From Batkoa obscura (Eukaryota), in assembly GCA_030770535.1 (NCBI GenBank), contig JASVEC010000002.1, positions 1,612,001 to 1,676,000 on the forward strand: 64,000 nt of DNA, in the 5' to 3' direction. Of this stretch, positions 10,728-58,060 are shown in pieces (the stretch's first letter is position 1; every line of letters begins with the position of its first letter). The position numbers and the translations under genes are program-made. The notes beneath the pieces are model-generated. The model was given only the letters and a program-made list of their open reading frames with translations, ran no database searches and was not told where the DNA came from.

Positions 10728-11837
10728 CTATAACTTTGCTCTATAAATATTGCTATCGTTATTCAGAAGGACAAATTTAGCAATGTTTTTGATAACAGAA
10801 GGATTGATAATTATTTGGTTATGGTTACCAAATCTATCATATAATAAAGTCACGTCTTTAACGTTTAAGTCAAACAAATGCTGACTAACTAAAAGCAACT
10901 GATCCATTGGTACTGCAGTATCATCACTCGATCCAATTAATAACACTTTTGGTAAATTAGAATAATTCATTTCATTAATATCTTTTAGTTTAACTGAAGT
11001 TACCGAATGCTCTTTTAATGCGCTATGATTATTTATCCCTGGAGCAAATACAATCATACGTGAAGAAGAGGTATCGATTTTTGGTTGACATATACCCATT
11101 CTTGGAAGCGATATATCCATTCCTACTGTATCTTCTAATTTAGGCTCATTTGTGACTGGTCTAATAACATCCTCTGATTCAGGATACTGTAAAATCATTC
11201 TTTTTGTATCTTCTAATTTAGACGACCCAAAAGTTAACTTTGAAGCGTCTTCTTCTACTTTAAAGGCGACAGAAGCAACATTATTGGAAAAAAAGGCGTT
11301 AGATTTAGTAATTGAAACTAAATCAAACACACCAGCAATTGAAATGATACCATTAATCCTATTGAACAAGTACAAAAAGTCGTTATTATTATAATAACTA
11401 CTTAATAGTTTTAAATATTTAGTTGAATTGAAACCAATTAAAAGAGAAATCAAGGCTCCAATTGAATGACCAGCTAGATAAATAGAATCGTAACTGAAAC
11501 CCAACTTTGTTACTATTTCGATATAACCTTTCATACAATCAATTAAGTGACTAGGGAATTGAAGGGTACCTTCATCTGAAGTTAAACGGTATTGTAGTCT
11601 TACCACATGGATTCCTAATTGACTCAATTGATCAGCTAATTGGTCAAATCCGGTAGCCATCTCGGGTGATAAAAATACTGCAGATTCAATAAATATAAGC
11701 AACGGTGCTGGACTAGTTCCAGTTTTGCTTGGGTGGATATGGTAAACGCATTTTTCGCTTTCACTACTATATTGTCTAGTTTGAACAGGATATTGCTTAC
11801 TACTGTTTATAACATGTTTAGGGAATTCAAATACCAT
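10728..11837 (-). CDS. Derived kynurenine-formamidase-like alpha/beta hydrolase (paralog A) with internal [R/K]-X5-P repeat insert and PTS1 (AKL)
   Basis: YRL, FP.HL.D, AGHSIG nucleophile elbow, GVFDL, SDDTAVP (Asp), GNHN (His), C-terminal AKL; intronless. Confidence 0.88.
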   Translation of the reverse strand: MVFEFPKHVINSSKQYPVQTRQYSSESEKCVYHIHPSKTGTSPAPLLIFIESAVFLSPEMATGFDQLADQLSQLGIHVVRLQYRLTSDEGTLQFPSHLIDCMKGYIEIVTKLGFSYDSIYLAGHSIGALISLLIGFNSTKYLKLLSSYYNNNDFLYLFNRINGIISIAGVFDLVSITKSNAFFSNNVASVAFKVEEDASKLTFGSSKLEDTKRMILQYPESEDVIRPVTNEPKLEDTVGMDISLPRMGICQPKIDTSSSRMIVFAPGINNHSALKEHSVTSVKLKDINEMNYSNLPKVLLIGSSDDTAVPMDQLLLVSQHLFDLNVKDVTLLYDRFGNHNQIIINPSVIKNIAKFVLLNNDSNIYRAKL

Positions 11838-13084
11838 CTTTTTATTTTATTTTTTGTGTTTATTTCACATTTTCAACTGTTTTTATATGTGTTTTTATCT
11901 TATTCGTGTTTCTACTTTATTAGTACCTAACATAACTATAAGAATATAATATTTCTATGTTACTCAACAGTATTTCTTTATACCATAATTTTTAGTTATA
12001 AAAATTTTGAATCCCGGTTAAGAACATTGTCAATTAAAATATGCAAAATATAGTATGGATCAACAAAAAACAGATAAGAACACAAAATAAAGCTTTGCAT
12101 ACAATAGAATAATATCGACAGGTCATTAGGTTAAAAGTAACTAATAAGTAAAAGTAAGACTTCATGCTTTTATATAGCTTAGAGTTAATCTACCCTAATA
12201 GCTGCATTTATTTTAGTTTGCGTTGGTTGTTGTAAACCTAGGTTTTAATAAATTAAAAATTACACCATTTCAACGAATCATATTATAAATAGAACTTCTT
12301 CATATTAAAACAATTCTTAGAAAAATAAATCCGAATAGCTTTAAAGTTTTATCAAAATAATAACTACCATAATTGAGCACAAATTAATAAGTTTCGGAAT
12401 TTTCGAAAAGGAAATCGAAATAAAATAAAAATATTTAAATAGTGTGTGATGTATTAAAATAAATTAATCAAATATTGTTTTTACTACTTAAATTACATGT
12501 TACTTTATATGCTCTTGATTTATTCTTAAGTATATTTATCAAGGGACTGTATACTGTTTTACCTTCCTACTATAATAGTAAATCATTAGAATAAAGTAAT
12601 TTAACTACTATTTCTTAATCTTCCTACTTTATGTCTTTAATATCAAACTGATATACATTGCTTAAGGCACCTATTCCTCCATAATACCCTAAATATTATA
12701 TACTATATGAGGAGTAAATTCCAATCAAAATCATGTAGTATATTTTTCTATTACACTATAATAACAGCAATTAATCTAAATAAAGAATTTAGCAAACCTA
12801 TTAAAGTTCTTTCATTTTTTATCAAACCAGATTAATTTTTGTTAAATATTTTACAATTAAAAATACTGAATCAATTGTTGGAACATTAGAGTAGGTTATA
12901 GTTATATGTTTTTCGTTGCTTCTAATTTTCAGTTATTCTTTATAGGTATACATTTAAAAGTTACAGTCCTATATATCTTTAAATTCATATTAAAAAATTT
13001 TAATCTGTGATTAAAAACAATAAGATTTAAACTGTACTAAATGATCTCTTAAAATAAAATTCTGACTAAAAGAACACTTCGATT

Positions 13085-13157
13085 AGCCCAACGCGGGGGT
13101 CGAACCCGCAACCTTGAGATTAAGAGTCTCACGCTCTGCCGATTGAGCTAGCCAGGC
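13085..13157 (-). tRNA. tRNA-Lys (CTT)
   Basis: Reverse complement GCCTGGCTAGCTCAATCGGCAGAGCGTGAGACTCTTAATCTCAAGGTTGCGGGTTCGACCCCCGCGTTGGGCT; cloverleaf, anticodon CTT. Confidence 0.96.
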
Positions 13158-14347
13158 CTTTTTCTTACTTGGCTTTTTATTCATTATATATATACTACTA
13201 AATATTTTAGAATCTAGATTAATGATTTTTTATTATACTCAACTTTGAAGACTATTTATACAAATAAGTTTTACATTAATCTTCATTATTACTTATCAAG
13301 TCAATTTAAAAATGGTTTAAAATCAAGCTAAAATTAAAACTTAATGCTTTATATATTAAGAAGTATCGATTCCTATAAATAGTAACTATCTCTTATTAAA
13401 AAGTTTGAAATAGCTTAAACCAAATGTTTGCTTATGAGTGCCCAGGATTTTTTAAAAAGAATGGTTTAATTTAAGCTACTGCAGCTCTATTGCGATATGA
13501 CTAACTGTTCATTTTAAAGTAAAAGTCAACTAAAACCAGATAAAATCTAACGATTAGATTTAAAGAGCCAAAAAAAACGTATGATTGACTCTAAAAACCT
13601 TCACAAACTAGACCACAATAGAGATGCAATAATTATATAAAGTTTCTTTTACTTTAATGCTCTTTGTTTTATGTTTATTGGTATGCTCTATATGCACTAT
13701 AGTTTTGCTTATTTCCTGATTGGTTTAATTTAGCGAATTTTTTAAGGTTGAATTTACTGTTTTTAATTTAAATATATTATTAAATGATTATGCTACGTAA
13801 TGTAATTTAGTACTTAATTTATTTTTAATCATTTTAATCCTTTAATTTAACTTTTATATAATAATTTGTTTTGATAGTTATAGATAAATGAGCACTTTTT
13901 GTTTTTTCTATCTTTATTGCAACTACAACTTTGTTAATTTATCCTCAAGTGATAAATGAATTTGTTATTCTTATTCTAAACTATTATATTAAAAAATAAA
14001 TTAAAAATGGTTTAATGAGAAACAGCTACTTTATGTATTATTAAAAGAATAAAAATTTATTTAAAAATTATTTAAAAATTATTTAAAAAATTTAAAGAAT
14101 AAAAAGGGGAAAGAAAAGTTTAAATATTTACTTTATAAGTAAACTTTTCTTTATTTAGGCCAAAATAACAAAAATTTGACAATCGCCGGAATAGATGTTC
14201 CGAAACATATTTAAAAAAAGAATGCATTGAATCAGTATCATAATATTATTATGTCGTATTAAAAATAAGATTGATAAATTAAAGAAGAGGAAGAGTATAT
14301 AAATGATCTTGTAGCAACCGAAATTAATTTAAAATTTTAATCATAAA

Positions 14348-14845
14348 ATGTCAGATTTAATTCAATATAAAATTAATCATTTAAAAGTTAACGCTTATTC
14401 CCCTGAAATGATTGTACTTCCTTCATATACAAAGAAAGTTAATTCTTTATCTTTACCTTCAATATCTTCTTTTATAAATGATTTAAATTATAACCAAGCT
14501 TTCAGTAATGATAATGAAAAATCAAAGGATACTTACATAGACAAAGAGTACACTGCTAGCTCATCTTATTCCTACTTATCGAGTCCATACAAGAGAACAG
14601 AATTAGATTATAATAACTTTTACTCAAACATTGAACTAGCGATTGATGAAGGGTTAGAACGTTTACCCATCAAACCTAAAAGAAAAAGAGCAGGCAAAGC
14701 ACAAATCAAAATACTAAATCAAATATTCTCAAAAACACCTTTTCCTAGCACAGAACTAAGGTCATTACTCTCTCATAAATTACGCATGTCTCCAAGGGCC
14801 ATCCAAATTTGGTTTCAAAATAAGAGGCAGATCAGCAAGAATTAA
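14348..14845 (+). CDS. Homeodomain transcription factor (single exon, C-terminal homeodomain)
   Basis: KPKRKRAGKAQIKILNQIFSKTPFPSTELRSLLSHKLRMSPRAIQIWFQNKRQ; LPSI motif. Confidence 0.9.
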   Translation: MSDLIQYKINHLKVNAYSPEMIVLPSYTKKVNSLSLPSISSFINDLNYNQAFSNDNEKSKDTYIDKEYTASSSYSYLSSPYKRTELDYNNFYSNIELAIDEGLERLPIKPKRKRAGKAQIKILNQIFSKTPFPSTELRSLLSHKLRMSPRAIQIWFQNKRQISKN

Positions 14846-17697: not shown

Positions 17698-18137
17698 TAT
17701 TATTCTAATTTCAGAATAGACTGAACATTTTTAATTTTATATTTACTGAATTTGATTATGATGACTTTTCTAATTTTACATTTAGCAAATACTAAGTTAA
17801 CTGGTAGAGATACGTAATTGCAATAGTAAAAGCTTCTATTGGAAAAAACCTATTGATATTATTAACTTCAAGGGAAAATAATGGTAGTTAGTTTAAATTT
17901 ACGTTGTAGCCAATAATTCTTTAGTTGATTTTAACATGGTATTAAGATATGTATAAAAATCTAATAGTTCCTTTGAAGTTTCGGATATTAGATAAAATAT
18001 AGTAGCAAAATCCTTAATTTTTTAAACTTTGTCCTTTAATATTTCACACAGAATATCACCATCATATATTTCTAATAATGCCTCTCTATTTTTAAACACT
18101 ATAGTAATGTACATACCTTGTTTGATATAAATTGATA

Positions 18138-18231
18138 GAGAATGTATTTTTTGTTGAAAAATCTTGCCAATAGTTATTCTACTCAAATAGTGCTTGAAAA
18201 ATGGGAAAAATAATAAAACTAAAAAAAACCG
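18138..18231 (+). mobile_element. MITE family 1 copy (degenerate)
   Basis: Core TCTACTCAAATAGTGCTTGAAAAATGGGAAAAA; ends eroded. Confidence 0.65.
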
Positions 18232-19133: not shown

Positions 19134-20207
19134 ATGGTATTTGAACCCCCTAAGCAAATTAGAAATAACAGTAACCAATATAATGTTCAGACGAAACAAT
19201 ATAGTAGTGAAAGTGAGTTATGTGTTTACCATATTCACCCAAGTAAAACTGGTAACAACCCAGCACCATTGATTGTATTTATTGAATCAGCTATCTTTTT
19301 ATTACCTGAGGCAGCGATCGGCTTTGATCAAGCAGCTGAAAAATTAAGTCAGTCAGGAATCCACGTTGTACGATTGCAATATCGTTTAACTACCAAAGAA
19401 AATAACCTTCAATTTCCAAATCATTTACTTGACTGTATGAAAGGATATATCGATATCATAACAAAATCAGATTTAAACTATAGTTCCATTCATTTAGCTG
19501 GTCATTCGGTCGGTGGTTTAATGTCTCTTTTGATTGGTTTTAGTTCAACTAAGTATTTAAAATATTTAAATACTAATTATAATACCAGTGATTTATTGTC
19601 GCTATTTAAAAAAATCAATGGTATTATTTCAATTGCTGGTGTATTTGATTTAGCTGCAATTGCTAAATACAATGCTTTTTTTAACAATAATGTTGCTACC
19701 ATGGCTTTTCAAGTGGAAGGATGCCGAATTTCAAAGGTAGTTATACATTCGCCTGAGTCAGAAGATATTTCAAGAGTGTTTGTTCCTCCTCCAATAAAGT
19801 CAGAAGAAATTTCACGTGAATCTACAAATACTACGAAACCTGATCAAGTTGAGTCTGAATCTGAAAGCATAACACGAATGGGTATATGCCATCCGAGAAT
19901 GGGTATTTGTAGTACATTAAAAGAATATTCAGCAACTTCAATTTCATTAAAAGATATTAATGAAATGAATTATTCTAATTTACCAAAAGTTTTATTAATT
20001 GGATCTAAGGAAGATACTGCTGCCCCAGTGGAACAACTACTTCAATATAATCAACACTTATCAAGTTTAAATGTCAAGGATGTCACCTTATTCTATGATA
20101 ATTTTGGTAACCATAATCAGTTATTTTTAAATTCATCTGTTATTCAAAAAATGGCCAACTTTATTCATTCCAGTAATTATAAGAATCTCTATATGGCTAA
20201 GTTATGA
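19134..20207 (+). CDS. Derived alpha/beta hydrolase (paralog B) with internal [R/K]-X5-P repeat insert and PTS1 (AKL)
   Basis: Closely similar to paralog A outside the insert; AGHSVG, KEDTAAP, GNHN, terminal AKL; intronless. Confidence 0.88.
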   Translation: MVFEPPKQIRNNSNQYNVQTKQYSSESELCVYHIHPSKTGNNPAPLIVFIESAIFLLPEAAIGFDQAAEKLSQSGIHVVRLQYRLTTKENNLQFPNHLLDCMKGYIDIITKSDLNYSSIHLAGHSVGGLMSLLIGFSSTKYLKYLNTNYNTSDLLSLFKKINGIISIAGVFDLAAIAKYNAFFNNNVATMAFQVEGCRISKVVIHSPESEDISRVFVPPPIKSEEISRESTNTTKPDQVESESESITRMGICHPRMGICSTLKEYSATSISLKDINEMNYSNLPKVLLIGSKEDTAAPVEQLLQYNQHLSSLNVKDVTLFYDNFGNHNQLFLNSSVIQKMANFIHSSNYKNLYMAKL

Positions 20208-21623
20208 TTTTGCTATCTTGAACATTCTACAGTATTAGAATAAATTACATCCTATTTTTTTAACATTTTTTTAAATTGTTTATTTGATGAATTTTCTAAA
20301 ATTGAACTTTTTTTATAAAAGTAAATTTAAGTAAAGCTTCAAACCTCCGTATCTTTTTTATAGTAAGGTGTGAAGGAGTTAACTCGTAAGTTTTCTTATA
20401 TACTACTTTTCAAATATGTTTAAACCCTGTTATTTCTTATTTAAACTCTTGAATCTTTTTAATACTAATGATGTCTTTACATACCATATCATAGCCTCCC
20501 ATTCCTTTTTGTCTTTCTCTAAGCTTATGGATCATCTACTCATATTATTTAAAAATCTCAGCTGACAACACCTTCCACATGATATTGGTTTATCTTTGTC
20601 TTGTCAGAGCCAAATTATAGGAGTTAGGATCTAAAACAACTAAACATAGTCCTTCAAAATTAAAAGCAAGAGCACTTACCTTAAACCATAGCTTCCCAAC
20701 TTAGTAATCCCATTTACTATATCTGTCCATGGCATCTCTTATTTAGTTACATTGTATTGTCCAGATGATTAGCTAATACTTAATTGAAATTGGGACAAAA
20801 TACTTGTGTAGCATAAAATTTTTGTGATAAAAAGGCTCATAATTTTTTTTATGAATTTTGGCAGAAGTCCTCAAAATTAATCACTTACATCAAACATAAA
20901 GCAAGGCTAAATTTACAATGTTTGATTTTGGATCGGATTTTTCTAATTAGTAGTATTATTACAAAGTAATTTAGATAGGAGTTTCAAATTTGTTTATTAA
21001 TTTGTAATATGAAAATCATTTTTTATCTTTTGTGATTGATTGAAACGGTATTAGTCAGTATACAAAATAAAAACAAAAATAAAATAACAACCAAAATAAA
21101 ATTATTATCAAAAGTTCCATCATTTCAATCAATATTCAAAAATAGGTATACCACAATTGTATTAAACTTTATTATATTCCAACTTAAAAAAGCAATAACT
21201 GATACAATTAAGTTGTATTCATTCTTTGGAAGCACTATTTTTTTTTAAAACTATAGTAATTATTTTTAGTATTTTATGCATCCTCTTCCGTCTTATGAGT
21301 TATAATATGACGTATATAATCATACTTAATTCTGGTGCGAGTAATTTATTTTGAATTCATTCTCTGTCTTTATCTTATATCAAACTGGAATACTAAATTT
21401 AACAATTATCATCGGTTCAACTATGATTAATATCATTTCCTTATTTCAATACAAAGAAATAAGATTTGTTATAACAATTAGTTGGATATTATTTTATTAT
21501 TGTATTTTAATTATTATATCTAATATATCTAATAGCGCTTTTTTAATTGGCAAATTAGACTTCTTATATCTCAATTGTATGTTATATTCTACTATAGCTT
21601 TTCTTTTAAAGATTCTAATATTT

Positions 21624-21720
21624 GAGGATGTATTTGTGTTTAAGAATTCTGTTAACAATTTTTCCGCTTAAATAGCGCTTAAAAGATGGAAAAAGTAATG
21701 AAACCAAAAAAAACATCCCC
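21624..21720 (+). mobile_element. MITE family 1 copy with ATTT target duplication, abutting a partial opposite-strand copy (21721-21765)
   Basis: ATTT-GAGGATG...CATCCCC-ATTT. Confidence 0.85.
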
Positions 21721-22642
21721 ATTTGAGTGGAAAGATTGTTAGTAAAATTAAGCAAAAAAATATAGTTTAATATATTATTAACTTTTGTACTGTTGAATAA
21801 AAACCCTTTTTAAACCAATTTGATCGATATAATATCTCCAGAAATCTTAATTTATTTATTCTTTATTGATAATAAAGTATTTATTATTATATAGCATTTT
21901 AAGTAAAATCTAAAGCATAAAGTTTTAAGTTAATTTAAAATAAACGTTATTATTATAAAAAGCCCAATTAGATTATTATTAATTATCATCTATCAACTAG
22001 TCTAAAATGTAATTATTCTATCTTATTTTTTAGCAAGTGAAATTAATAAAGTGTTATTTAGAAAATCAGTTTAAATGAACAGTTATTTAGCTTTCTGTTG
22101 ACTTTGATATCTTGTATCACATTATTAAAACATTAGTAGAGGTAGCTTTATCTTGAATCTTCTCAATAATAAGATTATTATTTAATGATTTTTTTTAAAA
22201 AACCCTTAAATCATTACCATAAATGGTAAATACTTTAAGTTTTAAAACAATTAATAAAATCTAATTGAATATTTTCAACTATAGTAAAGAGACAACTATT
22301 GCTAAGTTTAAATTAAATGATTTAAAATAATTAAAATAGTTAACAGCACCACTATATTAATAAATAAAATTGTTAATATCGATTGAAACAACCATTCTCA
22401 TTATACCACTAAAAGAAATATATTTGAGTATCTAACTAGAAATTCAAGTAAGCCATTTCAAAAATATTAATTCAAATAAATTAAACCGCAAAGGTAGTTA
22501 ATCCAACTAAGATTCATTAAGCTAAATATACCCTAGAAAAAAATATATAAAAGCCTCAACAGTGTACACCAATTTAATATCATCAACATTTCAATATCTA
22601 AACAAACAATCTACTAAATTTCATTAATAATAACAGTAAAAT

Positions 22643-23641: not shown

Positions 23642-25052
23642 ATTTTTAATGCTTTGCTGAACAAGAGTCTATTTTTAAATTTAAATTCAAATTTTAAATT
23701 TTATAGTTTATAGTCTATATTTAGAATTTATAAATATATTCTATAGTTTTAAATAGCTATTTTTTTGAAATATTTAGAATATGTTTTAGTTGTATTTGAC
23801 TTAGTATTGAATTGTTTTAATTTCAATATTTTAAAATAAATTCATGAACACCCTATCAAAAAACTCAGCAATTGTTAAGCTAATTTCTTAAATGATCAAC
23901 TTAATTTTGGGTTGCATAGAAATTTGCCAAAGTTGTTAATTATTGGTTAAAACTCTAAATTTACTCATAAAATACTAATTTTTATCTGAATTCTTCATCA
24001 AAAAATACTTCAGTTTTAACTATTTTTATCTAATCATAAAATCATCCTTACTATTTAATAAAAAATTCAAATTAATAGAACTAATGGAGCTAATAGACAA
24101 GTAAGCCATGTATTATTTTATTAAAAATAGAACTTGATTTATTTATAACCTATACCCCTCACTTAAAAACTAAGATCTCAGTCCCTTATACTAATCTTAT
24201 TTTTAAATTATTTTATCTTTCCAGTTTTTTAATTAGTTTATTCATTGTAATTATTAAAAATATGATATCAAAACAAGTAGTCTACAAACTACGTCAATAG
24301 AAATATGGTAAAAAAAGTAAGTCATTTTTTATTACAAAAAATTATAAAAGTTAATGCTAGCTGATAAAGTGTATAATAAAAGTTAAGTCTATTCAGTTAA
24401 ATTTGATATTCAATATTTTGAACTTAATATTAAATGCTCCCATATTGTTATCAATTCCTTTAATTTAACTTTATAGTACTGGATTTCTTATTAAACAATT
24501 TACTTATGCCCATATTTTAATTAACGATTCAATTTATCCCTTTAATTCAAAGTTGAGAACAAGGACCTGTCATACTTTCATGCTGGAATCTATCAGTGAT
24601 GAATTGAAGTCTTGTCAAATACAGTCATAGCTATTTTTTTAAATTGTGTTCTGGTTGGTCTAATTTTTAAGTGAAAGGATTCTGTTTTTAGAGTAGAGAT
24701 AAAAAATTTACTAATGTTTGAATTTGGGGACATTTATCAACAAGTAAATAATTCAAGGCCTAAAAAAAGGATCAAAAATCGAACAAAAAAAATAAAAATC
24801 AATATTTTGAATCAAACTAAGTCTTCAGATAAGCTTAATTATAATATTTCGTTTAAAGTACCCTCTAATTAAAAATAGAATATGGATTTGAATTTCAATG
24901 ACTGTTTCATTATAAAAATAGAATTTGTTAAAAATCCAAGCAAGTTCTGCTTAGTGAGATGGGTTGAAATAAACAAAAAATTAGCTTAAAATACGATATA
25001 TAAAAAGGTAACTAGAATATTAAGAAAAAATAAACAATTAATAAATTGAATA

Positions 25053-41075: not shown

Positions 41076-41321
41076 AAGCCTTTAAGTATGTTTGGTTCAT
41101 TTTTAAATTCAAAGTTTATTACTCAATAGTTTTATAGAGTTGGGTATAAATATATGGCGTTGATTATAATAATATTTCCTATCAAACATGAACTTTATTT
41201 TCTCAATAAATTTATAATATTTGAAATAAGTTTCTTGTGTCGTTTATTTGAATAAGTCTAAAATAAATTATAAAATTATGAAGATGGGAGTAAATTTAAA
41301 AATGGTTTAGGATTAAAATAT

Positions 41322-41419
41322 GGGGATGTATTTATTATTTGAGAGCTTTACTAATAATTTTTCCGCTTAAATAGCGCTTAAAAGATGGAAAAAGTAATGA
41401 AATCAAAAAAAATATCCTC
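41322..41419 (+). mobile_element. MITE family 1 copy (a more diverged relative may lie at ~41463-41565)
   Basis: ATAT-GGGGATGTA...TATCCTC-ATAT. Confidence 0.85.
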
Positions 41420-41713
41420 ATATATATAATCTTTAAATTTATTTAGGTTTAAGTTTGTAAAGTTATGTGAGTATTTTTTTATCCCATTATTTTATCTGCT
41501 TTTTATACTATGAAAATAATGGGAAATTATTAACTAAACGTTAAAGTAAAAAAGTATCCCAATATGAGGGGTACTATAAAAATAAACAAAACAGCATTTT
41601 TAAAATAAGTAAAAGCGGGAAAAGGTGAGTTTTGGGTTTAAACTGTCTCACGTTAAAAGTAGATTTACTAAATTTAATATCAAATAGTTAATTAATTTAT
41701 ATATATTGTTCAA

Positions 41714-45413: not shown

Positions 45414-45920
45414 TTACACACCACGAAGTAGCAAGAATCCTAAAGTAGAGAATATAAGGATGTGAAGCTCCTTTGGGATATTAAAAAATAGTTTGAAATC
45501 CCCATTTTCGCGAGAAAAAGTGCCAATGGTTGCTTCTGGTTTTAAGGAGCAATTTAAGATCCATTTATCTGTATAAAATGTCCAATAATAATATATGGCA
45601 GCTTCATGACTTGGACAGATAATAATTTCAGCATGATAACCTTCATTGCTTTTTAGTTTCAATTGGAATTTTAAATCAGAAAGCTTACTAGCTGGGTCTA
45701 CTAAACTTATTTTAAACTCGTTTTTTGCGAAGAAATGTGCTTTAGTTATTTTTGCTAATGGTAAATTATTCGCAGATAATAAAAGAGTGCATTTATTATT
45801 AATCAGTATGGATTTGTATTGGTGATTCAAAGTGGAGTCATCAGTTACTAAAGATATATTATAATTTTTTAATTGATTATTTGGATCTTTTTCAAATTTA
45901 TATTTTATTAAACTTTCCAT
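45414..45920 (-). CDS. Hypothetical 168-aa protein, paralog of 52282-52794
   Basis: Shares LPLAKI, LSDLK, Y.AEI.I, YYWT and KEL..L..TL.FLL.R with 52282-52794. Confidence 0.75.
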   Translation of the reverse strand: MESLIKYKFEKDPNNQLKNYNISLVTDDSTLNHQYKSILINNKCTLLLSANNLPLAKITKAHFFAKNEFKISLVDPASKLSDLKFQLKLKSNEGYHAEIIICPSHEAAIYYYWTFYTDKWILNCSLKPEATIGTFSRENGDFKLFFNIPKELHILIFSTLGFLLLRGV

Positions 45921-47432
45921 GCTTAACTACTATTTTGTTAGAGTGCTTCTTGATATTTATTGTATATATACTATATCCTTTTCCTACTCTATTTAAGCTT
46001 GATTACTTGGCACTTACCTAGATTGATATTTTGTTCCAGAGCAACAATTATAAAAACTCGGAAAGAAATTGGAACCTCCAAAGTAGGTGACCTTTATAAG
46101 GTTGAAAATCAATTAAAAAATAAAGTATAAGCATAAATGTGATTTCATATATATATATATTATTACTCATATTTCAAATCCTTTAAAAAAGGTAGAAGAG
46201 TTTACCTTTTGGATTTGAGATCCTTTGAGTTTTATTCATAAAGTTATATTATGATTTACTACGTTTTAGTTTATAGCTATATCAATTTCTAATAATTTTA
46301 TTAGTCTTATGCGAATTCAAAGTTGCCGAACCTTGGCAGATAGAATGGTATAGTATAAAAACACACCAAAAGACACGTGACTACAGTATATGTAGTCAAG
46401 AGTAGTTTGTAATTGGTAACATATACCAATATCCTTGGCTATTCGTATTCGCGTAATAGTTAATAAAAGGTGGCATTGTGTAAAAAAAAAGATTGAATTT
46501 ATCTAAAACTAAGTAGCAATTATTTTACTATTAAACATAAGTAGTAAAGTAAGATATAAAAAATAATTTTATCTTATAGCTATTGCAAAGTTATTGACAA
46601 AATAAGTCTGTAAAACTTTTGACACTTAATATTATCATATAATATAAAGAGTTTAATAATTTTTGTATAAGATAAAATTCAGTTAAAAAAATATTTCTTA
46701 TGTTTCACATTAAACTAGCTTTTTATAGCATATATTGCTAGTCTTTCTTGTTTTTGACTATTATTCAATATCTCAAAAATTACTATGTAAATTTCAACTT
46801 AAATGATCCTACTTTGGTGCATAATGCCAAGGGTTTAGAAAAGATATAGAATATTTATACACAATATAGCCATTATCAGTATGTTCAATATAAAACTTAT
46901 AAAGCTGATATTCTACATACATGTTTATATAGTACTTTTAAACACAAATGAAAAAAAGTATTTAATTACTTTTTACTGAAAAACAACTGTTCAAGTTTAA
47001 CCATTTAATTTCTAGGATAAGTTGTGTCAGATTGTAAAAACTAAACTTGGATTTGTGTAAAATATAGTAGCAAGTAAATTTAATAACTTAATAGTATTCA
47101 TTTACTTGTATATTAATTTACTCCTTTACCTAAAATTATAAAAAGTATATATTCATAAAGTATAATCAGTTATAAAAAAACATTAGTCTTTGAAACCAAT
47201 AGCTTATTTGAACTTTTTCCTTTAGACTTAATCAAACTGCTTATTCTAGCTCAATAAAAACAAAATATAATTTAGTGTCGTAAAAAAAGTTCAATGATAA
47301 TCAAATTCAGATTACAAAAACCAAAATCTTGTCATGGTCATTATGCTATAGATTTATACAACTTTTTCTTTTACTTATCTTTCAAGCTATAAAATCAGAT
47401 CACAGACTTGTCTTTTGATTTATATAAGATAT

Positions 47433-47860
47433 AAGTATGTATTTTTTTGTTTAAGAATTTCACTAACAAGTTTTCCATTAAAATAGCGCTTAAAAGATGG
47501 AAAAAATAATGAAATCAAAAAAATATCACTATATTGTATATATGATATATTATAGGTCATGTCACTTTGAACTGTTTTGAAGAGCTTATTTACCTTAAAC
47601 AAATTCGTTTTTGTTATTAAGATTCACTATAAATATCATTAAACTTTTGCTTGAGGGAATAAATTTACCTTTAAATCTTTTACATCTTTATAATATACAG
47701 GTTTTTTAAACCTACCTGGCTTTCCCAAAAAAATACTTGAACAAATATATAAAAATAAGGAACAAAGGAGTGTTTGTTTGGCTTCATTACTTTTTCTATC
47801 TTTTAAGCGCTATTTTAGTGGAAGATTTGTTAGTGAAATTCTTAAATAAAATGTATCTCC
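47433..47860. mobile_element. Two MITE family 1 copies in inverted orientation (47433-47530 +, ~47766-47860 -)
   Basis: Conserved core AAATAGCGCTTAAAAGAT on opposite strands. Confidence 0.8.
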
Positions 47861-48033
47861 ATATCATATATATTTTGATAAAATTTTCCAATTATTTAAT
47901 TTTAAGTAGATATAATAGCTATCACTATAATAAATAATAAAACAAGTTACAAATTAAGGTTTATATAAATTTATTTTAATATAGAAAGTTAAAAACGGAG
48001 CTAGGGATCAAAGAAGCGTTAAAGTTTACGATT

Positions 48034-49711
48034 CTATAATTTAGAAGCCAAAAACTTAGGTGATGGTCTATCTGGAATAATAAAATCTAAAATAGCTTGG
48101 GCAATTAATGGATCCTTGGTAATATCATTGTGTCCACCAAAATTGTTAGCCAAATATTTAAGTTTATCAAATCCAAGGAAATTCAAATGTTTTGCAAAAT
48201 TTAAGCTATGGCCTGAATGAACTAAAGTATCATTAGTCGAGTGAATGATCAATGCTTTAGGTAAAGTAGTATAAGGTATCATCTTCAAGTGAGAGCTAGT
48301 AACATACTGTGGAGAAACAGATCTTAAATAATTTAATAATTTTTCATCGTTTGTAATCAAAGATTGAGAATTGTTGTTGACTTCATTATTTGGAGTTATA
48401 GAGTTGGAGTTATTTTGAGGATAACTCCATTGAAGTTTGGGCTCTTCTTGAGCTTTTGGTGAATATTGTGGTTTTGTATAAACAGATCTTGTGATGCTTG
48501 ATTGACCGTTTGTATTAGGACCAATAGTCATGGTTCTCTCGGTAATAGTAACATGAACATCTTTAGGTATAATATAATTATAAAATTGAGTTCCGTGACT
48601 GGGCTCTATTCTAATACTTTCAGAGTTGTTCAAATCAGTTCTATTTTCAGTATTTGAGGAATCTCTTTCCCCATTAATTGGACTTGGTACAATAAGTCTT
48701 TCCCCATTAATTGGACTTGGTACAATAAGTCTTTCTGTATTATGAGGGCTTACTACAATGAGCCTTTCTGTATTATGAGGGCTTGGTACAATGAGCCTTT
48801 CTGTATTATGAGGGCTTGGTACAATGAGCCTTTCTGTATTATGAGGGCTTGGTACAATGAGCCTTTCTGTATTATGAGGGCTTGGTACAATAAGCCTTTC
48901 TGGGTTACTTGAAGTATAAGGCGCTGATCCAGAAGTAAATTGCCCAATATCATTTTGGTTTAAGGAAACTTCATATTGAGAAACAAATGATTGATTTGCG
49001 TTTTGAGCCTGTATTGAATCGGCGTGAGAGAATTTGGTAATTCCGTTGTGATTAAAATAAACATTCTCCTTCGCAACTTGAGATAAATCAAAAGTTCCAG
49101 CTAAGGAAACTAACCCTTTTATTCTGGATATTAAAGTTGTTTCCTGATCTTTACTGCTTGAAAGCAATGGTAAATATGCACCAGAGTCCAAAGCTATTAT
49201 ACTAGCAAGAAGCGCACCAGATGAGTGACCGCCAATGTAAATTTCATTACTTGCAAATATACTATGAGTTAAAATATGTAAATAACCCTTTAAACAGTCT
49301 TCAATGTGATTTTTGAATTTAATATCACTATGGTTATTTGTGCGATAATTTACCCTAATTACATTAAGCCCCTCATCACTTAAACGTTGAATAAAATTTT
49401 CAAAATCAACATGACTAGCACTTAAATATGGGAAAGATTCAAACCAAATCAAAACAGGAGCTTTTGAATTGTACTTGCATGGATAAATATAATACTTACA
49501 TTCTTCGGATTCTTTTGAGTAAACAACCTCGAAGCCAGAAGAAGGTTTTGATGAGTCACTAAAGAGTTGATTAATTAATAAAGAAAAAAAATACTAAAAT
49601 AAATTACTTTAAAGGTTTTGATTCATAAACATTTACAGCACTATAAGGGCTTGAGGTGATAATATTCCCTCTAGTACTTTCTAAATCAGTCATATGAGTC
49701 CCAATTACCAT
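48034..49711 (-). CDS. Derived alpha/beta hydrolase (paralog C, ~542 aa, 2 exons) with large repeat insert and PTS1 (SKL)
   Basis: ATG 49711; phase-2 intron 49559-49607 restores an N-terminus (YSKESEECKYYIYP...APVLIWFES) homologous to paralogs A/B; GGHSSG, GTFDL, STNDTLV, GGHND, terminal SKL. Confidence 0.87.
48664..48900 (-). repeat. 33-bp coding tandem repeat x7 encoding ERLIV(P/V)SP(HNT/ING)
   Basis: Near-identical gggcttggtacaatgagcctttctgtattatga units on the + strand. Confidence 0.97.
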
Positions 49712-50798: not shown

Positions 50799-52281
50799 TT
50801 TTATCTTTTAAAGATTTGCTTCTAAATTATATTATCAATTTTTTAGTTAAATACGTGACAAAAAGGTATTTCTATATGCTTTATCATAATAAATAATCGT
50901 ATAATTTTAATAAATTAATTTTTATTTCTTAACTGTAGTTTCAGAACTGAGAAATATACTTTCTAAAGCGCCTAGACTGTATAGTATTGACTTGTTATCA
51001 ACTGACCTAATGTTGATAAATTTTAATTATAGTCAAATCTAGTTAATGTGTTTTGTAAGCAATAATCAACCTCCTACTAGAAATTAGAATACTCCAGTGA
51101 AATTTAAATTTGAACAAATCAAAAACCAGGGCTAGTCAAATTTCTTGTACAAATAGCCTTTTGATCAGAAAATTAGAAACTAAACAAATAAGATTGATCA
51201 AATTATTCGTGTGGACAACAATCTGGTAGAAGATTGAAAACTGATTGAATCATAGTAGCTAAGAAGCATTTGACTTGAAAAGTAAGCTGTCCAAAACCAT
51301 TAAGTAGCTAGATGATGGGCTAAATAAGCTAACATTGTATATATCCTTGTTTTTTTTGCAAAAGAAACAAAGTGTTTAGACTTAAACATACATACTTTTT
51401 TTTCCTTAAAATTCCTCTTCATGGAAGCTCTAAATTTGATAGTATTAGTTTAAGCTATTTGAAAACCCAAATATTGGCAATCCTAAACTCATTAGTTTGT
51501 AATAAAATTATGACAATAAATTTATTATATAATTTATGTTTAGTATCTGAATTTTAAAGTTATCCACATTAAAAAGCTTAACAAATTATATAAGATAATA
51601 GCTATTGCTACTTTATAAGCTTTATTTAAGTCCCAAGGTTTATATAAGTAATATTAGTCTAAAATCAAATAGCTTTTAAACCATTTGATTTTATAATATT
51701 AAATTTACCAATTTAAAACATCTAAATATATAAACATATAAAATAGACCAATAGTTAGCTATTTTATAGTATTAGCTTAAAGTAAATTTTACTATCTATT
51801 TTATATAAGACAATCACTTTTATTAAAGAACTATTAACAAATATGTAGTAACATTTGATGTTTACTGTAACATATTATTTATAGATGTTTGAGCAACTTA
51901 TTACACTTTTGTTAAAATGAAATCACGATAAGTATAAAATATGATAAATTAATACTAAACTAATACTTTGATTATCAATTATCACTTAACTATCGTTTTA
52001 TGTTAAATAGATTATTATTTTTTCATATCCTTAATATTTAATAATTGATACGAATAAATTCCAAAAAAGGAAAATCGGTAAACTCTTAACTTTTATAATG
52101 CAACTTTATTTGCCAACCTTGAACATGCCAAGTTTTAAGAAAAATGTAAAGAACTTCTAATCTAATAAATGAATATTTAGGATAGCACAAATCTGGGCCA
52201 AGTAATAACATCAAATCCAAATAGTATAAAATGCAATCATAAATACTCTTTTTTTAAAAAACCAAAATCAAAGCTATCAAA

Positions 52282-52794
52282 ATGAATTCTATCATATGTT
52301 ATCAATTCACTAAAGATACCAAAACTAATGTTTATAACTTAAATCCTAAGCTTGACTATGTCAATCAAAAATATCAGTACTCACTCACATTTACTAATAA
52401 GAAGACTGCCATTGTAGTTGATGGCTTAGGTTTACCTTTAGCAAAAATTGAAAGTTGTGGCCTCTTTAATATAAGCAGATACAAGATTATTATTGCCATG
52501 CCAGAATTATGTCTTTCCGATCTTAAGATAAGATTGATAATACCAAGTAAAAGTAAAATGAATGCTTATCGCGCTGAAATTAAGATTAGCTCTCAAAACA
52601 GCAAGCAGGGTGTATCTTATTATTGGACTTATTACAGTGAAGAAGGCTGGTTTTTAAATAGCTCTAAGGATCCCGAATTATCTATTGCTTCCTACAGTTT
52701 TAAAAATCCAGTTTATACTTTGTTTTGCAATACTTCTAAAGAACTCAATGTTTTATTTTTGACAACTCTCTCCTTCCTTTTATATAGAAACTAG
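52282..52794 (+). CDS. Hypothetical 170-aa protein, paralog of 45414-45920
   Basis: Collinear similarity to 45414-45920 across the full length. Confidence 0.75.
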   Translation: MNSIICYQFTKDTKTNVYNLNPKLDYVNQKYQYSLTFTNKKTAIVVDGLGLPLAKIESCGLFNISRYKIIIAMPELCLSDLKIRLIIPSKSKMNAYRAEIKISSQNSKQGVSYYWTYYSEEGWFLNSSKDPELSIASYSFKNPVYTLFCNTSKELNVLFLTTLSFLLYRN

Positions 52795-53576
52795 TCATAA
52801 AATTATTGTATATATTTGCTCCTTTATTAACATCCTTTTAACTTAATAAACTCTACTTATTTTAATTTTTATATTATTGCAATTATCATTATTATCTATG
52901 AGATATGGGGTCTAATAAATACATTATTTTATGCGTTATTTTATTGATAGTAAAATAAGCCGAATTGTTTAGGATATGAACACTGTTCAAGTTATATACA
53001 TATTATATTATAATAAGCTTTAATATTAATTAAGTCAAAATCTTAATTTAATTCTCCGATCTATCCTAGAGTGATAGAAACTTCTTTACTTGACTGCGTG
53101 TAACAATATGCCAATATTATCTTTATAAGGATCATTATGGTAATATAAAATAACAGGGAAATAGGTTTTTTCATGATTTGCACAATCACACTTACACTAA
53201 ACTAATGATGGATCCTAATATCCTGATTCTTACGCTGTATTCATTACAATTTTAAATTTTGGGAGAAAGCTCACAGATGAAAACTTTATTAGTGAAATAA
53301 AGTTAATTGAATAACAAGGCTAGCTATCCAAGAGATATAGAGCTTCTAGACCCCTTGCGATTCTTTTCCAGGCGGAGTCTTAGAAAATCTAAAATCCATT
53401 TCCCAGGTGTTACCATTCAATAAACATTAACTGGACCGAAGGAACTGATTATTCATGCGCAAAGGAAAGTCTAGTATAGATTCTATACATAGTCCAGATG
53501 ATAGAAGAGCAAGAATAAGCTAAAAAAAAGTATGAATATGTTTGCCATGTTAAAAAAGAGCTTTGTATTAGTATAT

Positions 53577-53878
53577 GGGAATGTTTTTTTTGACTTCATT
53601 ACTTCTTCATTTTTCAAACACTATTTGAGTGGAAAAATTAATAAATTTTTTAAAAAAGACATCCCCATATATGCTTTTATTTAGGAAACAAACCCAAGCT
53701 GTTATATAAGTAAATTACTTGTTAATATTTTTTGAGCGTTCATTTAAATGTAAACTAAATATATCATGTATTAATACTTGGGTTTTAATATGAGGATGTT
53801 TTTTGGTTTCATTCTCCATTTTTAAGTACTATTTCAGTGGAAAAATTGTTAGTAAACTTAAACAAAAAATACATCGCC
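53577..53878 (-). mobile_element. Two MITE family 1 copies (53577-53666, 53792-53878)
   Basis: TIRs and ATAT flanks; CTATTT(G/C)AGTGGAAAAATT core. Confidence 0.82.
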
Positions 53879-54462
53879 ATATAATTTTTTTAGCAGATAA
53901 ATGAAAAACTTATTGTATCTATTTTTACAAAATGATATAGATAAAGTAATAATTAAAATGAATATAATTATTATGCTGATAACTGTAAAAGTGAAGCCAA
54001 CTATCGTATTGAAGTGTCCTAAGATTATGGGATATATTATATTATGATGCCTATGTATCTGCTGTTAAACTCAATTTAGGTTGTATAAATATTTATCGCA
54101 TATATTTTATATGATCTTTAGTTATATTATCTTTTACAAAAATAAAGTTTAAATATTATAAATAAAAACCAAACAACAAGCATATAGTTTAACAAAATAA
54201 TTATTATATATTTATTAAATAAAAACATATTTATAAAAGTAACGAGACAACTGTTGTTTACAAATTTGAAAACGGTAAAAGATTTAAATTTTTATCTTTT
54301 ACTTTAACTTTTAAATGTGTTAATGAATATAAATAATTAGAGCTTTTTAAAAAGATAATTGGCATCGCCTAAGTAAAATATTATTAATGAAACATAAAAA
54401 AGCTATAAAGTTTTCATTATATAAACCTAGAATTCAAATTCAAAACTACTTTTTAATGATAT

Positions 54463-54557
54463 GGATGTGACTTTTTTTGCTTATGAATTTCATTACGATA
54501 TCTACTTAATGGTGGTCGAAAAGTAGAATAATTAATGAAATTAAAGAAGACATTTCC
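54463..54557 (+). mobile_element. MITE family 1 copy (highly degenerate)
   Basis: ATAT-GGATGT...ACATTTCC-ATAT, same length, weak core match. Confidence 0.5.
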
Positions 54558-55450
54558 ATATGTATTAAATTACGATAACTTGAGTATAAGATTCATTTCA
54601 AATAAACAAGCAAGTCTAAAGACGTCTAAAACAATAACATAGTTAAACGAAAAATGTATTTATAGTTTATAAAAACCCAAGGATCAGATAAGTGGACACT
54701 AATAATATTTTCAAAATGTTTAGCATATTAAGGAAAGTGATTTATTAATGAAAAAAGGTTAAAAAAAACTTGAATGTGAAGTCCAATCAGAAAAAAGCGG
54801 ATAGGTAATATGGCTCAAATATATGGTAAAGTAATAATGATTATAGCTAGAGGCCCCCAAATCAATGGTTAAAAAGCGAATAGCAGTCTGACATATCACT
54901 CCTAGGGCTAAGTGTGACCTGAAAATAGACTTTTTGCTTTGAGTTTTTTTCGGCCTAAATGATTTAAATATAATTCTTTAAAGACTAAAAGTATGCCACT
55001 CTTGTCACAGTCTTTCTAATAACATTCTAACTTGCTTTTTAATAGGCTTTGACTATAAAGGTCTCGAATTTTATAGACCATGCTCTAAGGTTACCTTAAT
55101 TTTATCACTAAAATGTTAATCGTAACAGCTAAAACATTTAAAGGTATTAGCTATTAACTTAAAAAAGGAATTTGTTAATTTGGTAAAACGATCTGGCTTT
55201 AAGTTTAGTATTTTATATTAAAAAAGCAATCAAATAGATTAAAAAGTAAACTGTGATATTTTTGGGGCACCAAATTAAGAATAAACTACAAAACTGGATG
55301 GATTGCAAAATAACTCATGAATAGATGTTATAAAATGAGTTGATTGGAAATTGTGTCTTAATTCAAAAGTTCAAGGTGGCTATAATAACAATTAGTAATT
55401 AAAAATAAGTCAAGGATTCTTTTTCATTAAAAAAGACAATATTGAACAAC

Positions 55451-57103
55451 ATGAATAAAATAACAAAAGGTGATAAGTTGCCGAACAGATGTGATAATTG
55501 TAGTAGAAAGAACATAGGTTGTGATAGGATGCAACCAAAATGTCGAAATTGTATCAAGAGTAAACTTGAATGTACATTTCAAAGACCCATTAAAAAAATA
55601 AACAAACTACATTATATGGATAAAAATTTAGTTAAGTTTAGTGTTTCTATAAATAGTCGTATGGTTAAAGATACAAATCCAATATTTAATATATATGATA
55701 CTATACAAAACAAATATGCCTTACATAATATTTTAGTTATGTTGCAATACCCTAGTCCATTTCAGATAAGTAGTAATGTATGCATTGTAATGTCTCTAGT
55801 TAAAAGTATCCAATGCTATAGACCTAAAGCTAATATAGAATTAAATGGGTTAATTACTTTTAAACTAAATGAGCGTTTCAAAATAGATTTATTAAATAGG
55901 GCGTTATCAGAGTTTGAATTATATAATAGGACACAGTTAATGTTATTTCATCCTCGAAACATCAAGTTAAATGAAAGATCTGAGATATTAGTAGATATTA
56001 TTTATTTATTTGGACTAACAAAATTAGAGTGTAACAAAGAAATAATAAATTATTATGAAAACAAAGTAAAAAATCATTATTTAAATTTGATGAATATTCG
56101 ACCAAGTTTGGATAATTTACAAGGTTTTTTAATTGTATTATATGGATTAAGACAATATCGTTGGATAGATAAAATCAATTATTCGCTTGTCGGCTGGATT
56201 TTACGTGTTTCTCAAATTTTAGGACTTCCTTTTAGTAAAAGAAAACACAAGAAATATGTTCAATTAGAAAGACAACTAGCTTATAATTTATTGCATCAAT
56301 TATTAGGAATTTTCAGTATCAATTCTTTCTTTTTTAGTGCAGTTCCATATAAATGTAAAATTCCATGTCTAGATTTATATATATCTTTTTCAATTCATTT
56401 TGATTCTAATATAATAGGTAATTTATTAATATTTTAATATTTTAATATTCAAAGCTTATAATCATTTATAGCTAATTTAATCTTTAATGACTTCATTTCC
56501 GAATTTAATAATATTTGCTTTTGTTTAAGTCAAATCAAATGTAATATTTATGAGACTAAAGAAGGAATTGAAAGTTTAAAACAAAGCATTTTACGGTTAT
56601 TAAAGCGAGAAGATAAAATTCATAATCAATACATTGGTTTATTAAATCAGTATTGTAATAATGAAACTTATTTTACGGCATGTATCAATTTATATCATTA
56701 TTATATATCTTATTTCATTCACTCTATCTTATTCTTTAACGCTACTGATTCTCCTACTTCAACCATGGCCTATAAATTAGAATTATACTGTGGTATTTCA
56801 CAAAGAGAATGGATTATACGAACCCTCGACTTATGTTTACAATGTCTAAAGTGTTTCATCGATTTACCTTTAAACAATAACTCTTTCTTTATTTACGCCT
56901 TTATAAATCAACCCATATTATTTTTATTGAGGTATAAAAGTAAGCTTAATTTATCAAAAGATAACGTTAGACTTTTGAAGTATAACCAAGCATATGAGTT
57001 ATGTAAGCAAAAGTTTTTACAAATTATACAGAGCCCTTTTGATAATGTTTATGCACAATCGAACTTGAGATTAATTGACACAATGCATTCATTAACTTCT
57101 TAA
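55451..57103 (+). CDS. Zn(II)2Cys6 fungal transcription factor (2 exons)
   Basis: CDNCSRKNIGCDRMQPKCRNCIKSKLEC binuclear cluster; intron 56418-56471 joins in frame to ORF 56765-57103. Confidence 0.88.
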
Positions 57104-57164
57104 TTTGCTAAAATATAACATATATTTATATCAATCTAATTTACTCTTTATCTATTTTAAATAA

Positions 57165-58060
57165 TTATAATTTAGTTTTATTATTGTTTAAAAAATTGAA
57201 TAATAAGGTAATCAGATTAATATCACGTGGCATATCATTATGGTCCCCAAAATTATCAACAACCATATGTACTTTGTTAAATTTTTGTTCCATTAATTTA
57301 TTAAGGAAATTATAGCCTTGGTCATTTGGTAATAGAGTATCAGTATTAGAATGGACAAGTAAAAATTCTTTATCGAAACAATCTAACCCGTTATTTCTGT
57401 TATTAAATTTAATAAATTGTGGTGAATAGTTATCCCATCTATCTTTATCTTTACCAAAACAAAGCTCAATAAAAGCATCCTTATAGCCATCATTATATTT
57501 CACTAATAAACTAATATCAAGTACTGAAGCAAGTAACATTAAACCTTGTACTTTCTTTAATAATTGAACATCATCTTCGTTAATATGTGGGTAATATGTA
57601 AATAAATCTAACATAATCATCGAAATCATAAAGCCACCAGCAGAATGACCAGCCAACCAAACACCTTTATATTTCAAATCCAATTTTAATACATGTAATA
57701 TTCCATTTAATGCATCATTCAAGTGAGTTGGATATCTTACATTATTTTCAAAATCAGTGATACGATATTTTAATAATACGAAGTTAATTCCCAACTTACT
57801 TAATGTTTCTCCCATAAAGAAGAAATTACTACTTTGATCCGTTACCCAGCCACCGCCATGAAGTAAAATAATTAAGGGTTGATTTGGTGCTCCATTGAAT
57901 ATATAATAAGTTTGATCTATTTCATTTCCATACTTTCCATCTGGATTACGTTCAATTCCTCGAGTTAATATACTATGATTATTTATTTAAATAAAGCTAT
58001 TAAATTTAAATTCAACACTTACTGAGGTTTACTTAATAATCTTTCACTTTTAGCATCCAT
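57165..58060 (-). CDS. Canonical kynurenine-formamidase-like alpha/beta hydrolase (paralog D, ~281 aa, 2 exons), no insert, C-terminal TKL
   Basis: ATG 58060, phase-2 intron 57973-58022; LIILLHGGGW, YR, YPTHLND, AGHSAGG, YSP, HSNTDTLLP, GDHND. Confidence 0.88.

What the first reader, a model, noticed from the sequence alone, without database searches (positions are those of the whole stretch)
10728..58060. Candidate new RiPP-like system: multi-core [R/K]-hexapeptide-Pro precursors embedded inside a peroxisome-targeted serine hydrolase
Seen: four paralogous alpha/beta hydrolases. Paralog D has no insert. Paralogs A, B and C each carry an insert at the same position (between the helix after GxFDL and the LxxxS(P) motif) whose length and sequence are hypervariable while the scaffold is conserved. 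The inserts parse into a basic residue plus six residues ending in Pro, separated by polar or acidic spacers. A: R-MILQYP, R-PVTNEP, G-MDISLP, R-MGICQP, R-MIVFAP. B: K-VVIHSP, R-VFVPPP, R-MGICHP. C: R-LIVPSP x6, R-LIVVSP, R-TMTIGP, R-SVYTKP, K-LQWSYP, plus E-SIRIEP and F-YNYIIP. Ser-Asp-His is intact in all four. Established: variable cores with fixed flanking recognition residues typify multi-core RiPP precursors (cyanobactin PatE, fungal dikaritins). Serine enzymes macrocyclise cores by transamidation (POPB cleaves after Pro in amatoxin/MSDIN precursors; also PCY1, OphP, PatG). Enzyme-precursor fusions exist (borosin OphMA, plant BURP cyclases). Inference: cleavage after Arg/Lys frees the core N-terminus and the resident catalytic Ser cleaves or transamidates after Pro, giving cyclic or linear hexapeptides such as cyclo-LIVPSP. 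I know of no described RiPP built on a formamidase-type scaffold.
Basis: partly seen in the sequence, partly recalled or inferred. Interest (0 to 1): 0.93.

Follow-up and report, generated by a model that had tools for sequence, protein, structure and literature searches.

The report
Peptide cassettes buried inside fungal hydrolases
Three related enzyme genes of an insect-infecting fungus carry, inside the enzyme, a string of repeated 'Arg–five variable residues–Pro' units, which the enzyme likely helps cut out of itself to make small, possibly ring-shaped peptides; this would be a new way for fungi to make such peptides, but it is untested.

Summary
Four kynurenine-formamidase-like (BD-FAE) hydrolase genes lie in the window; near-identical proteins are named from Neoconidiobolus thromboides. 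A, B and C form one clade and carry 78-, 66- and 227-residue in-frame inserts in the cap region; D and 147 other relatives do not. With C's tandem array counted once, the inserts hold 11 [R/K]-X5-P units against 2.1 expected. R…P(+6) is the top pair of 4,800 (family-wise p 3e-4). Spacers are better conserved than cores, and whole units are gained or lost between isolates. New here: the HGGAW oxyanion loop is replaced in A, B and C, while the triad and peroxisomal signal are kept; core positions 1–3 are hydrophobic; several units are degenerate; units may descend from the native cap loop. Best reading (0.4): a multi-core peptide precursor embedded in its own processing enzyme. Rivals: a tethered docking or pseudo-substrate array (0.3), a protease-activated loop (0.1), decaying repeats (0.1). 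No product, expression, tailoring cluster or second species was shown. It fails membership tests for MSDIN, dikaritin, borosin and burpitide systems.

The parts
10728..11837 (-). Hydrolase A, 369 aa, single exon; Ser125/Asp306/His339; C-terminal AKL
11019..11252 (-). Insert of A, 78 aa: K-LTFGSS (no Pro), R-MILQYP 11181-11201, R-PVTNEP 11142-11162, G-MDISLP 11103-11123, R-MGICQP 11082-11102, R-MIVFAP 11040-11060
   Evidence: pLDDT under 50 for residues 198-265
11039..11080 (-). 42-nt unit (spacer plus R-MIVFAP) absent from a roughly 90%-identical copy of A in run X3
11673..11687 (-). ESAVF in place of the HGGAW oxyanion loop in A
19134..20207 (+). Hydrolase B, 357 aa, single exon; GHSVG; C-terminal AKL; inverted duplicate of A (scaffolds 69% identical)
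19719..19916 (+). Insert of B, 66 aa: K-VVIHSP 19734-19754, R-VFVPPP 19773-19793, R-ESTNTT (no Pro), R-MGICHP 19875-19895, R-MGICST (no Pro)
19284..19298 (+). ESAIF in place of the HGGAW loop in B
48034..49711 (-). Hydrolase C, 542 aa, intron 49559-49607; GHSSG; C-terminal SKL
48340..49020 (-). Insert of C, 227 aa: seven 11-residue tandem units (R-LIVPSP x6, R-LIVVSP; 48679-48897), R-DSSNTE (no Pro), E-SIRIEP, F-YNYIIP, R-TMTIGP, R-SVYTKP, K-LQWSYP
49426..49440 (-). ESFPY in place of the HGGAW loop in C
57165..58060 (-). Hydrolase D, 281 aa, intron 57973-58022; no insert; keeps HGGGW; native cap loop reads R-WDNYS-P; C-terminal TKL

Best explanation
A, B and C are serine hydrolases that carry an array of spacer-[R/K]-five-residue-Pro units in their cap region, and these units are likely peptide cores that the enzyme helps release from its own chain. 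Shown: the array, its non-random spacing, conserved flanks around variable cores, whole-unit gain and loss, an intact triad, and a replaced oxyanion loop in exactly these three proteins. Inferred: the array arose once, possibly by tandem duplication of the native 13-residue cap loop. Inferred: a cut after Arg/Lys by an unidentified protease frees a core's N-terminus; the resident Ser attacks the bond after Pro, and the acyl-enzyme is resolved by the core's amine (cyclic hexapeptide) or by water (linear). Inferred: this happens in peroxisomes and leaves a nicked two-chain enzyme. Whether Arg is the cut site or residue 1 of a heptapeptide is open.
For: Spacing: 11 observed against 2.1 expected; top of 4,800 pairs, also in A plus C alone, whose inserts share no visible alignment. 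In three A/B unit pairs the spacer plus anchor is more alike in DNA than core positions 2-5: 18/21 vs 5/12, 15/21 vs 2/12, 17/21 vs 5/12; four other pairs tested show no such excess. Arg is kept through both AGR and CGN codons. Cores are hydrophobic (32 of 55 vs 55 of 239) and lack acids (1 of 55 vs 38 of 239). Whole units vary: 7 against 5 tandem units in C between this window and strain FSU 785; a contig of run X3 lacks 42 nt that fit one unit ending at Pro. Three of the non-repeat or repeat cores differ between strains with Arg/Lys and Pro kept (PATNEP, LQWNYP, LIVPGP). The A/B scaffold has dN 0.175, dS 1.07. A, B, C form a clade (SH-aLRT 93, quick tree) and all differ from the family at 7 conserved columns of the HGGAWxxxDK loop while keeping elbow and triad; Glu-Ser is shared by all three. 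Precedent read as passages: hypervariable cores with invariant Pro cut and cyclised by POPB, repeated cores flanked by ED and KR in UstA, precursors fused to enzymes (PMC6514808; PMC11253845).
Against: No product, cleavage or activity is shown. The second Gly of the oxyanion motif is present in 111 of 111 aligned relatives and lost in A, B and C, so the enzymes may be weak or dead. The nearest solved relatives are small-molecule esterases and formamidases; known serine macrocyclases are larger S9A or S8 enzymes. Seven of about 21 units lack the basic residue or the Pro, and two units have no spacer, so there is no constant follower sequence. The MGICxP core is conserved between A and B (10/12 nt), not hypervariable. 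Core positions 1-3 are patterned (R/K-hydrophobic-x-hydrophobic 10 vs 1.7 expected), as a binding motif would be. Pfam scans of 26 ORF pieces found no protease, transporter or tailoring enzyme except a tyrosinase with a hydrophobic N-terminus. Cutting the insert would sever Ser from Asp/His. Only one named species carries it in the searches made.
Confidence: 0.4

Rival explanations
1. The units are never released. They are a multivalent array of short linear motifs, [R/K]-hydrophobic x3-x-x-Pro, in a disordered loop; they would dock on a partner protein or sit in the enzyme's own remodelled site as pseudo-substrates that regulate it.
For: The insert is predicted disordered. Positions 1-3 are hydrophobic in 25 of 33 and positions 4-5 in 7 of 22 (columns printed). 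Degenerate copies and variable copy number are typical of multivalent motif arrays (10.1101/632547, passage). The oxyanion loop is altered.
Against: No known motif tested fits: PxIxIT 0 matches, LxVP only C's repeat (p 0.12), RVxF 1; Pro at +3 of a class I SH3 ligand (consensus recalled) 0 of 11. A peroxisomal signal argues against cytosolic partners. The triad is kept across proteins about 35-40% identical.
Confidence: 0.3
2. The insert is a protease-sensitive activation or bait loop: Arg/Lys sites let a trypsin-like protease clip out a blocking segment, giving an active two-chain hydrolase, like the excision peptide of serine carboxypeptidases (recalled, no call).
For: The insert lies between the nucleophile and the Asp/His halves, in the cap; 17 of 21 Arg in the three inserts start a Pro-ended unit or a degenerate unit's register.
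Against: Does not explain the fixed Pro six residues on, nor the tandem amplification of one core.
Confidence: 0.1
3. The insert is a tolerated, decaying tandem duplication of the native cap loop (FGxDxxxWxxASP) with no function of its own; Arg and Pro are inherited from one ancestral unit.
For: D's native loop reads R-WDNYS-P; several A/B units have Asp nine residues before Pro, as 46 of 110 relatives do. Substitutions between strains are denser in inserts (5 of 294 vs 5 of 1,132, p 0.037, repeat array left out). Units are clearly duplicates.
Against: Decay would erode Arg and Pro as fast as the cores; they persist across A and C while cores become unalignable. Arg at this place is rare in relatives (6 of 110), and the native Ala-Ser before Pro is mostly lost in the units; overall likeness to the native loop is weak (z 1.35). 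All indels seen inside the inserts keep the frame.
Confidence: 0.1

Closest known systems
Kynurenine formamidase family (yeast Bna7/YDR428C 1VKH, Drosophila 4E11; Pfam BD-FAE PF20434)
   Same: Fold (VIA Z 26.6, rmsd 2.6 over 241 residues to 1VKH), top profile hit, triad and GHSxG elbow.
   Different: A, B and C lack the HGGXW motif and carry a 66-227-residue modular insert; D keeps the motif and has no insert.
MSDIN precursors with POPB (amatoxins); orbitide precursors with PCY1
   Same: Short hydrophobic variable cores ending in Pro; an alpha/beta-hydrolase-clan serine enzyme able to cut and transamidate (PMC6514808, passages).
   Different: There the precursor is a separate small peptide, MSDIN cores have Pro on both sides, and the enzyme is a large S9A protein. 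Here cores follow Arg/Lys and sit inside a roughly 290-residue scaffold.
Fused RiPP pathways: borosins (OphMA) and fused burpitides (SkrBURP)
   Same: Cores encoded in the same chain as the modifying enzyme; several cores per gene in burpitides (PMC11253845, passages).
   Different: Different enzymes (methyltransferase, copper BURP domain); cores lie outside the catalytic domain, not in a loop of it.
Dikaritins / Kex2-processed repeat proteins
   Same: Repeated cores with basic and acidic flanks (ED, KR in UstA); a tyrosinase gene nearby.
   Different: No signal peptide, one dibasic site in all three inserts, a peroxisomal signal, fusion to a hydrolase.
PawS/PawL peptides buried in seed albumin
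   Same: Core peptides that evolved inside a host protein (PMC11253845, passages).
   Different: The host is a storage protein processed by a separate enzyme; here the host is itself a candidate processing enzyme.

Membership tests
Kynurenine formamidase / BD-FAE hydrolase | Alpha/beta-hydrolase fold with Ser-Asp-His triad | tested here: met
Kynurenine formamidase / BD-FAE hydrolase | HGGXW oxyanion motif (PMC5848607, passage) | tested here: not met
   ESAVF, ESAIF, ESFPY in A, B, C; met only in D.
Kynurenine formamidase / BD-FAE hydrolase | Formamidase or esterase activity | not testable with these tools
   Needs an assay.
Peroxisomal matrix protein | C-terminal PTS1 tripeptide (consensus in PMC12316961, passage) | tested here: met
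   AKL, AKL, SKL, TKL; only 6 of 151 fetched relatives end in such a tripeptide, 4 of them these same genes from FSU 785. Localisation itself is untested.
MSDIN / POPB | Stand-alone short precursor with MSDIN leader and Pro on both sides of the core | tested here: not met
   Cores are internal and follow Arg/Lys; Pro precedes the basic residue in 2 of the 11 unique full units.
MSDIN / POPB | Large S9A enzyme with a propeller domain | tested here: not met
   The scaffold is about 280-290 residues and is accounted for by one alpha/beta domain. A separate POP elsewhere in the genome could not be sought.
Dikaritin / KEP | ER signal peptide | tested here: not met
   No hydrophobic N-terminal stretch in A, B or C by reading; no predictor was run.
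Dikaritin / KEP | Dibasic Kex2 sites between cores | tested here: not met
   1 site against 2.5 expected.
Dikaritin / KEP | DUF3328 oxidase gene nearby | tested here: inconclusive
   None in 26 ORF pieces scanned; small exons and DNA outside the window were not covered.
Borosin | N-methyltransferase domain with a C-terminal core | tested here: not met
   Only hydrolase families match A, B, C; the units are internal.
Fused burpitide | BURP domain | tested here: not met
   The whole scaffold is one hydrolase domain.
RiPP in general | A released, modified peptide that matches a core | not testable with these tools
   Needs mass spectrometry.
RiPP in general | Variable cores between better-conserved flanks | tested here: met
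   with exceptions (MGICxP conserved, degenerate units).
Calcineurin docking motifs | PxIxIT or LxVP pattern across the units (patterns from 10.1101/632547) | tested here: not met
   PxIxIT 0; LxVP only in C's repeat, p 0.12 when collapsed.

The most novel reading that the evidence does not exclude
A formamidase-type hydrolase turned into a self-processing peptide cyclase: it carries a library of hexapeptide cores in its own cap loop and closes them head-to-tail at Pro inside peroxisomes, giving the first ribosomal cyclic peptides of entomophthoralean fungi and the smallest known serine macrocyclase scaffold.
Probability: 0.28. Interest if true: 0.92.

Novelty: new variant of a known kind. Interest (0 to 1): 0.72.

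Why it matters
Early-diverging fungi are thought to make few peptide natural products, and current mining looks for secreted repeat proteins or known enzymes, which would miss cores hidden in an enzyme loop. If true, this gives a new fused precursor design, a compact macrocyclase for short peptides, about a dozen predicted products with exact masses, and a visible path from a housekeeping loop to a peptide library. Even under the main rival, it is a clean case of a motif array arising together with a remodelled active site. One expression and mass-spectrometry experiment decides it.

Tried and rejected
No whole genome was held, so other paralogs, POP-like or Arg-specific proteases could not be sought. 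Relatives with inserts: word-based searches gave only the same genes of FSU 785 and nothing among 30-201-residue proteins; of 2,145 profile hits only the best 150 were seen; two metagenome scans gave no relative (15 loci matched only at the pattern). Atlas: generic BD-FAE clusters for A, no usable hit for C's insert. Expression: no RNA holder listed; the one guessed RNA run laid gave two short contigs outside the insert, which says nothing either way. Insert as an intron: rejected; no stop in 78, 66 and 227 codons (chance 8e-4, 2e-3, 1e-9 at intergenic composition), GC 35-38% against 24%. Single-sequence fold of A was unusable (pLDDT 37). Complex prediction of A with B's insert gave no verdict (score 0.00, alignment not used). 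The careful tree did not finish; the quick tree is reported, with D on a long branch. No S9A macrocyclase was among the listed fold hits, which excludes nothing. Paper searches listed nothing on this protein family or on ribosomal peptides from it; only listings and abstract starts were seen for most, and subscription journals are not covered. No supplements were read; the domain tables of PMC11105155 and the KEP tables of PMC7329392 could bear on paralog counts.
Full report
What is there. The window is AT-rich fungal DNA (26% GC). Four alpha/beta-hydrolase genes lie in it: A 10728-11837(-), B 19134-20207(+), C 48034-49711(-) and D 57165-58060(-); C and D each have one short intron. All four match Pfam BD-FAE above its cut-off. 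Proteins 94-100% identical are named from Neoconidiobolus thromboides FSU 785. That species has at least four more insert-less paralogs; PMC11105155 (passages) counts 25 BD-FAE proteins in it. A model of A built on 113 sequences (mean pLDDT 76) matches yeast Bna7/1VKH and HSL-type esterases; a profile search ranks 1VKH first and Drosophila kynurenine formamidase third.

The insert. In 148 other proteins from the best 150 of 2,145 profile hits (D's twin included, a few fragments), the stretch between the GxxD and SP motifs has a median of 30 residues and a maximum of 73. A, B and C carry 78, 66 and 227 extra residues there. The insert is coding: stop-free, richer in GC than intergenic DNA, and its indels keep the frame. 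It is predicted disordered (residues 198-265 under pLDDT 50). A, B and C form a clade in a tree built without the inserts (SH-aLRT 93, quick method, 33 rows), so one origin is likely but not proven.

More than chance. With C's seven tandem units counted once, the inserts hold 11 [R/K]-X5-P units against 2.1 in shuffles; no other offset of 12 stands out. Arg…Pro(+6) is first of 4,800 pair tests, family-wise p 3e-4, and stays so when B is dropped; C alone does not pass the full correction, and homologous scaffolds show that shared ancestry can inflate such tests. None of 16 control regions is enriched. Duplication alone does not explain it: in three of seven unit pairs compared, spacer and anchor are significantly more alike in DNA than the core; Arg uses both codon families. 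Units are gained and lost whole: C has 7 here and 5 in FSU 785, and a contig of run X3, about 90% identical to A, skips 42 nt that at one of two possible placements remove exactly one spacer-plus-core unit ending at Pro. Whether that copy is an allele or another paralog is not known.

First, the oxyanion loop HGGAW (motif per PMC5848607, passage) is replaced by ESAVF, ESAIF and ESFPY; its second Gly is present in 111 of 111 aligned relatives. The three proteins differ from the family at 7 conserved columns of this loop, yet keep elbow, Asp and His, and the A/B scaffold is under purifying selection (dN/dS about 0.16). The site was remodelled in the same lineage that gained the insert; this can mean a new substrate or lost activity. 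Second, the unit is better written [R/K]-hydrophobic x3-x-x-Pro. Third, seven of about 21 units lack the basic residue or the Pro. Fourth, D's native loop at this site reads R-WDNYS-P and several units keep the family's Asp nine residues before Pro, so the units may be duplicates of the native cap loop; overall likeness is weak (z 1.35).

How it likely works. I favour (0.4) a multi-core precursor embedded in its own processing enzyme. Shown: cassette anatomy, triad, changed loop, PTS1-type ends. Inferred: an Arg/Lys cut by an unknown protease, attack of the resident Ser after Pro, and release of cyclic or linear hexapeptides, in peroxisomes. The logic follows POPB and PCY1 for chemistry and borosins or fused burpitides for fusion (PMC6514808, PMC11253845, PMC10885120; passages). 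Against: no product; nearest relatives act on small molecules; no constant follower; no tailoring cluster among neighbours, which are THO2, Ras, a GTPase, WD40, homeobox and zinc-cluster genes and a tyrosinase; one species only.

Rivals. A tethered docking or pseudo-substrate array (0.3) fits the disorder, the positional pattern and degenerate copies, but calcineurin patterns (10.1101/632547, passages) do not fit. A protease-activated loop (0.1; precedent recalled) does not explain the Pro. Neutral decay (0.1) does not explain why Arg and Pro outlast the cores. About 0.1 is left for readings not considered.

Comparison and novelty. It works, if the best reading holds, like a fused RiPP pathway with POPB-type chemistry, but it is not a member of the MSDIN, dikaritin (PMC7329392, passages), borosin or burpitide families, and A-C fail the HGGXW test for kynurenine formamidases. 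Nine paper searches listed no description of it, within an open-access library. I rate it a new variant of a known kind, interest 0.72: a real, selected, unexplained architecture with a sharp and cheap test.

Noticed in passing
window 1143-1427, 9573-9721, 18126-18229, 21598-21725, 29138-29390, 41312-41438, 47407-47875, 53570-53886, 61783-63144: A dispersed non-coding repeat of about 110 bp, 75-88% alike, in more than a dozen copies, sometimes as inverted pairs (29140-29389, 47445-47851); looks like a small non-autonomous element.
   Followed up: no
window 25050-26660 (+): ORF with a hydrophobic N-terminus and 28 copies of a 13-residue Thr/Ser/Tyr/Pro repeat, no Pfam match; a Tyr-rich surface or adhesive protein is a guess.
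   Followed up: no
window 41714-42970 (-): Tyrosinase with a signal-like N-terminus, 5 kb from hydrolase C.
   Followed up: partly
window 45414-45926 (-) and 52258-52794 (+): Two 170-residue paralogs (36% identical) flank hydrolase C; no Pfam or NCBIfam match.
   Followed up: partly
window 55409-57103 (+): Zn2Cys6 transcription factor gene ends about 60 bases from the end of hydrolase D.
   Followed up: no
window 13084, 28905, 29620, 34621, 50725, 58755: Six tRNA genes, three of them identical tRNA-Asp; two form an inverted pair sharing 110 identical bases.
   Followed up: no
window 48745-48765 (-): One C repeat has two changed bases in a single codon (Pro to Val) while the neighbouring repeats are identical, hinting at core diversification or one multi-base mutation.
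   Followed up: no
runs X3 and X4 laid on window 10728-11846: Both hold a second copy about 90% identical to A; in X4 it lacks 3 nt of the insert, in X3 42 nt.
   Followed up: partly
proteins P0011, P0012, P0063: Two insert-less paralogs of the same species also alter the first half of the oxyanion motif (YSGAW, PSGGW); an unnamed relative has a 43-residue insertion near the same site without visible units.
   Followed up: no
window 2921-3631 and 14333-14845 (+): Two single-exon homeodomain genes.
   Followed up: no
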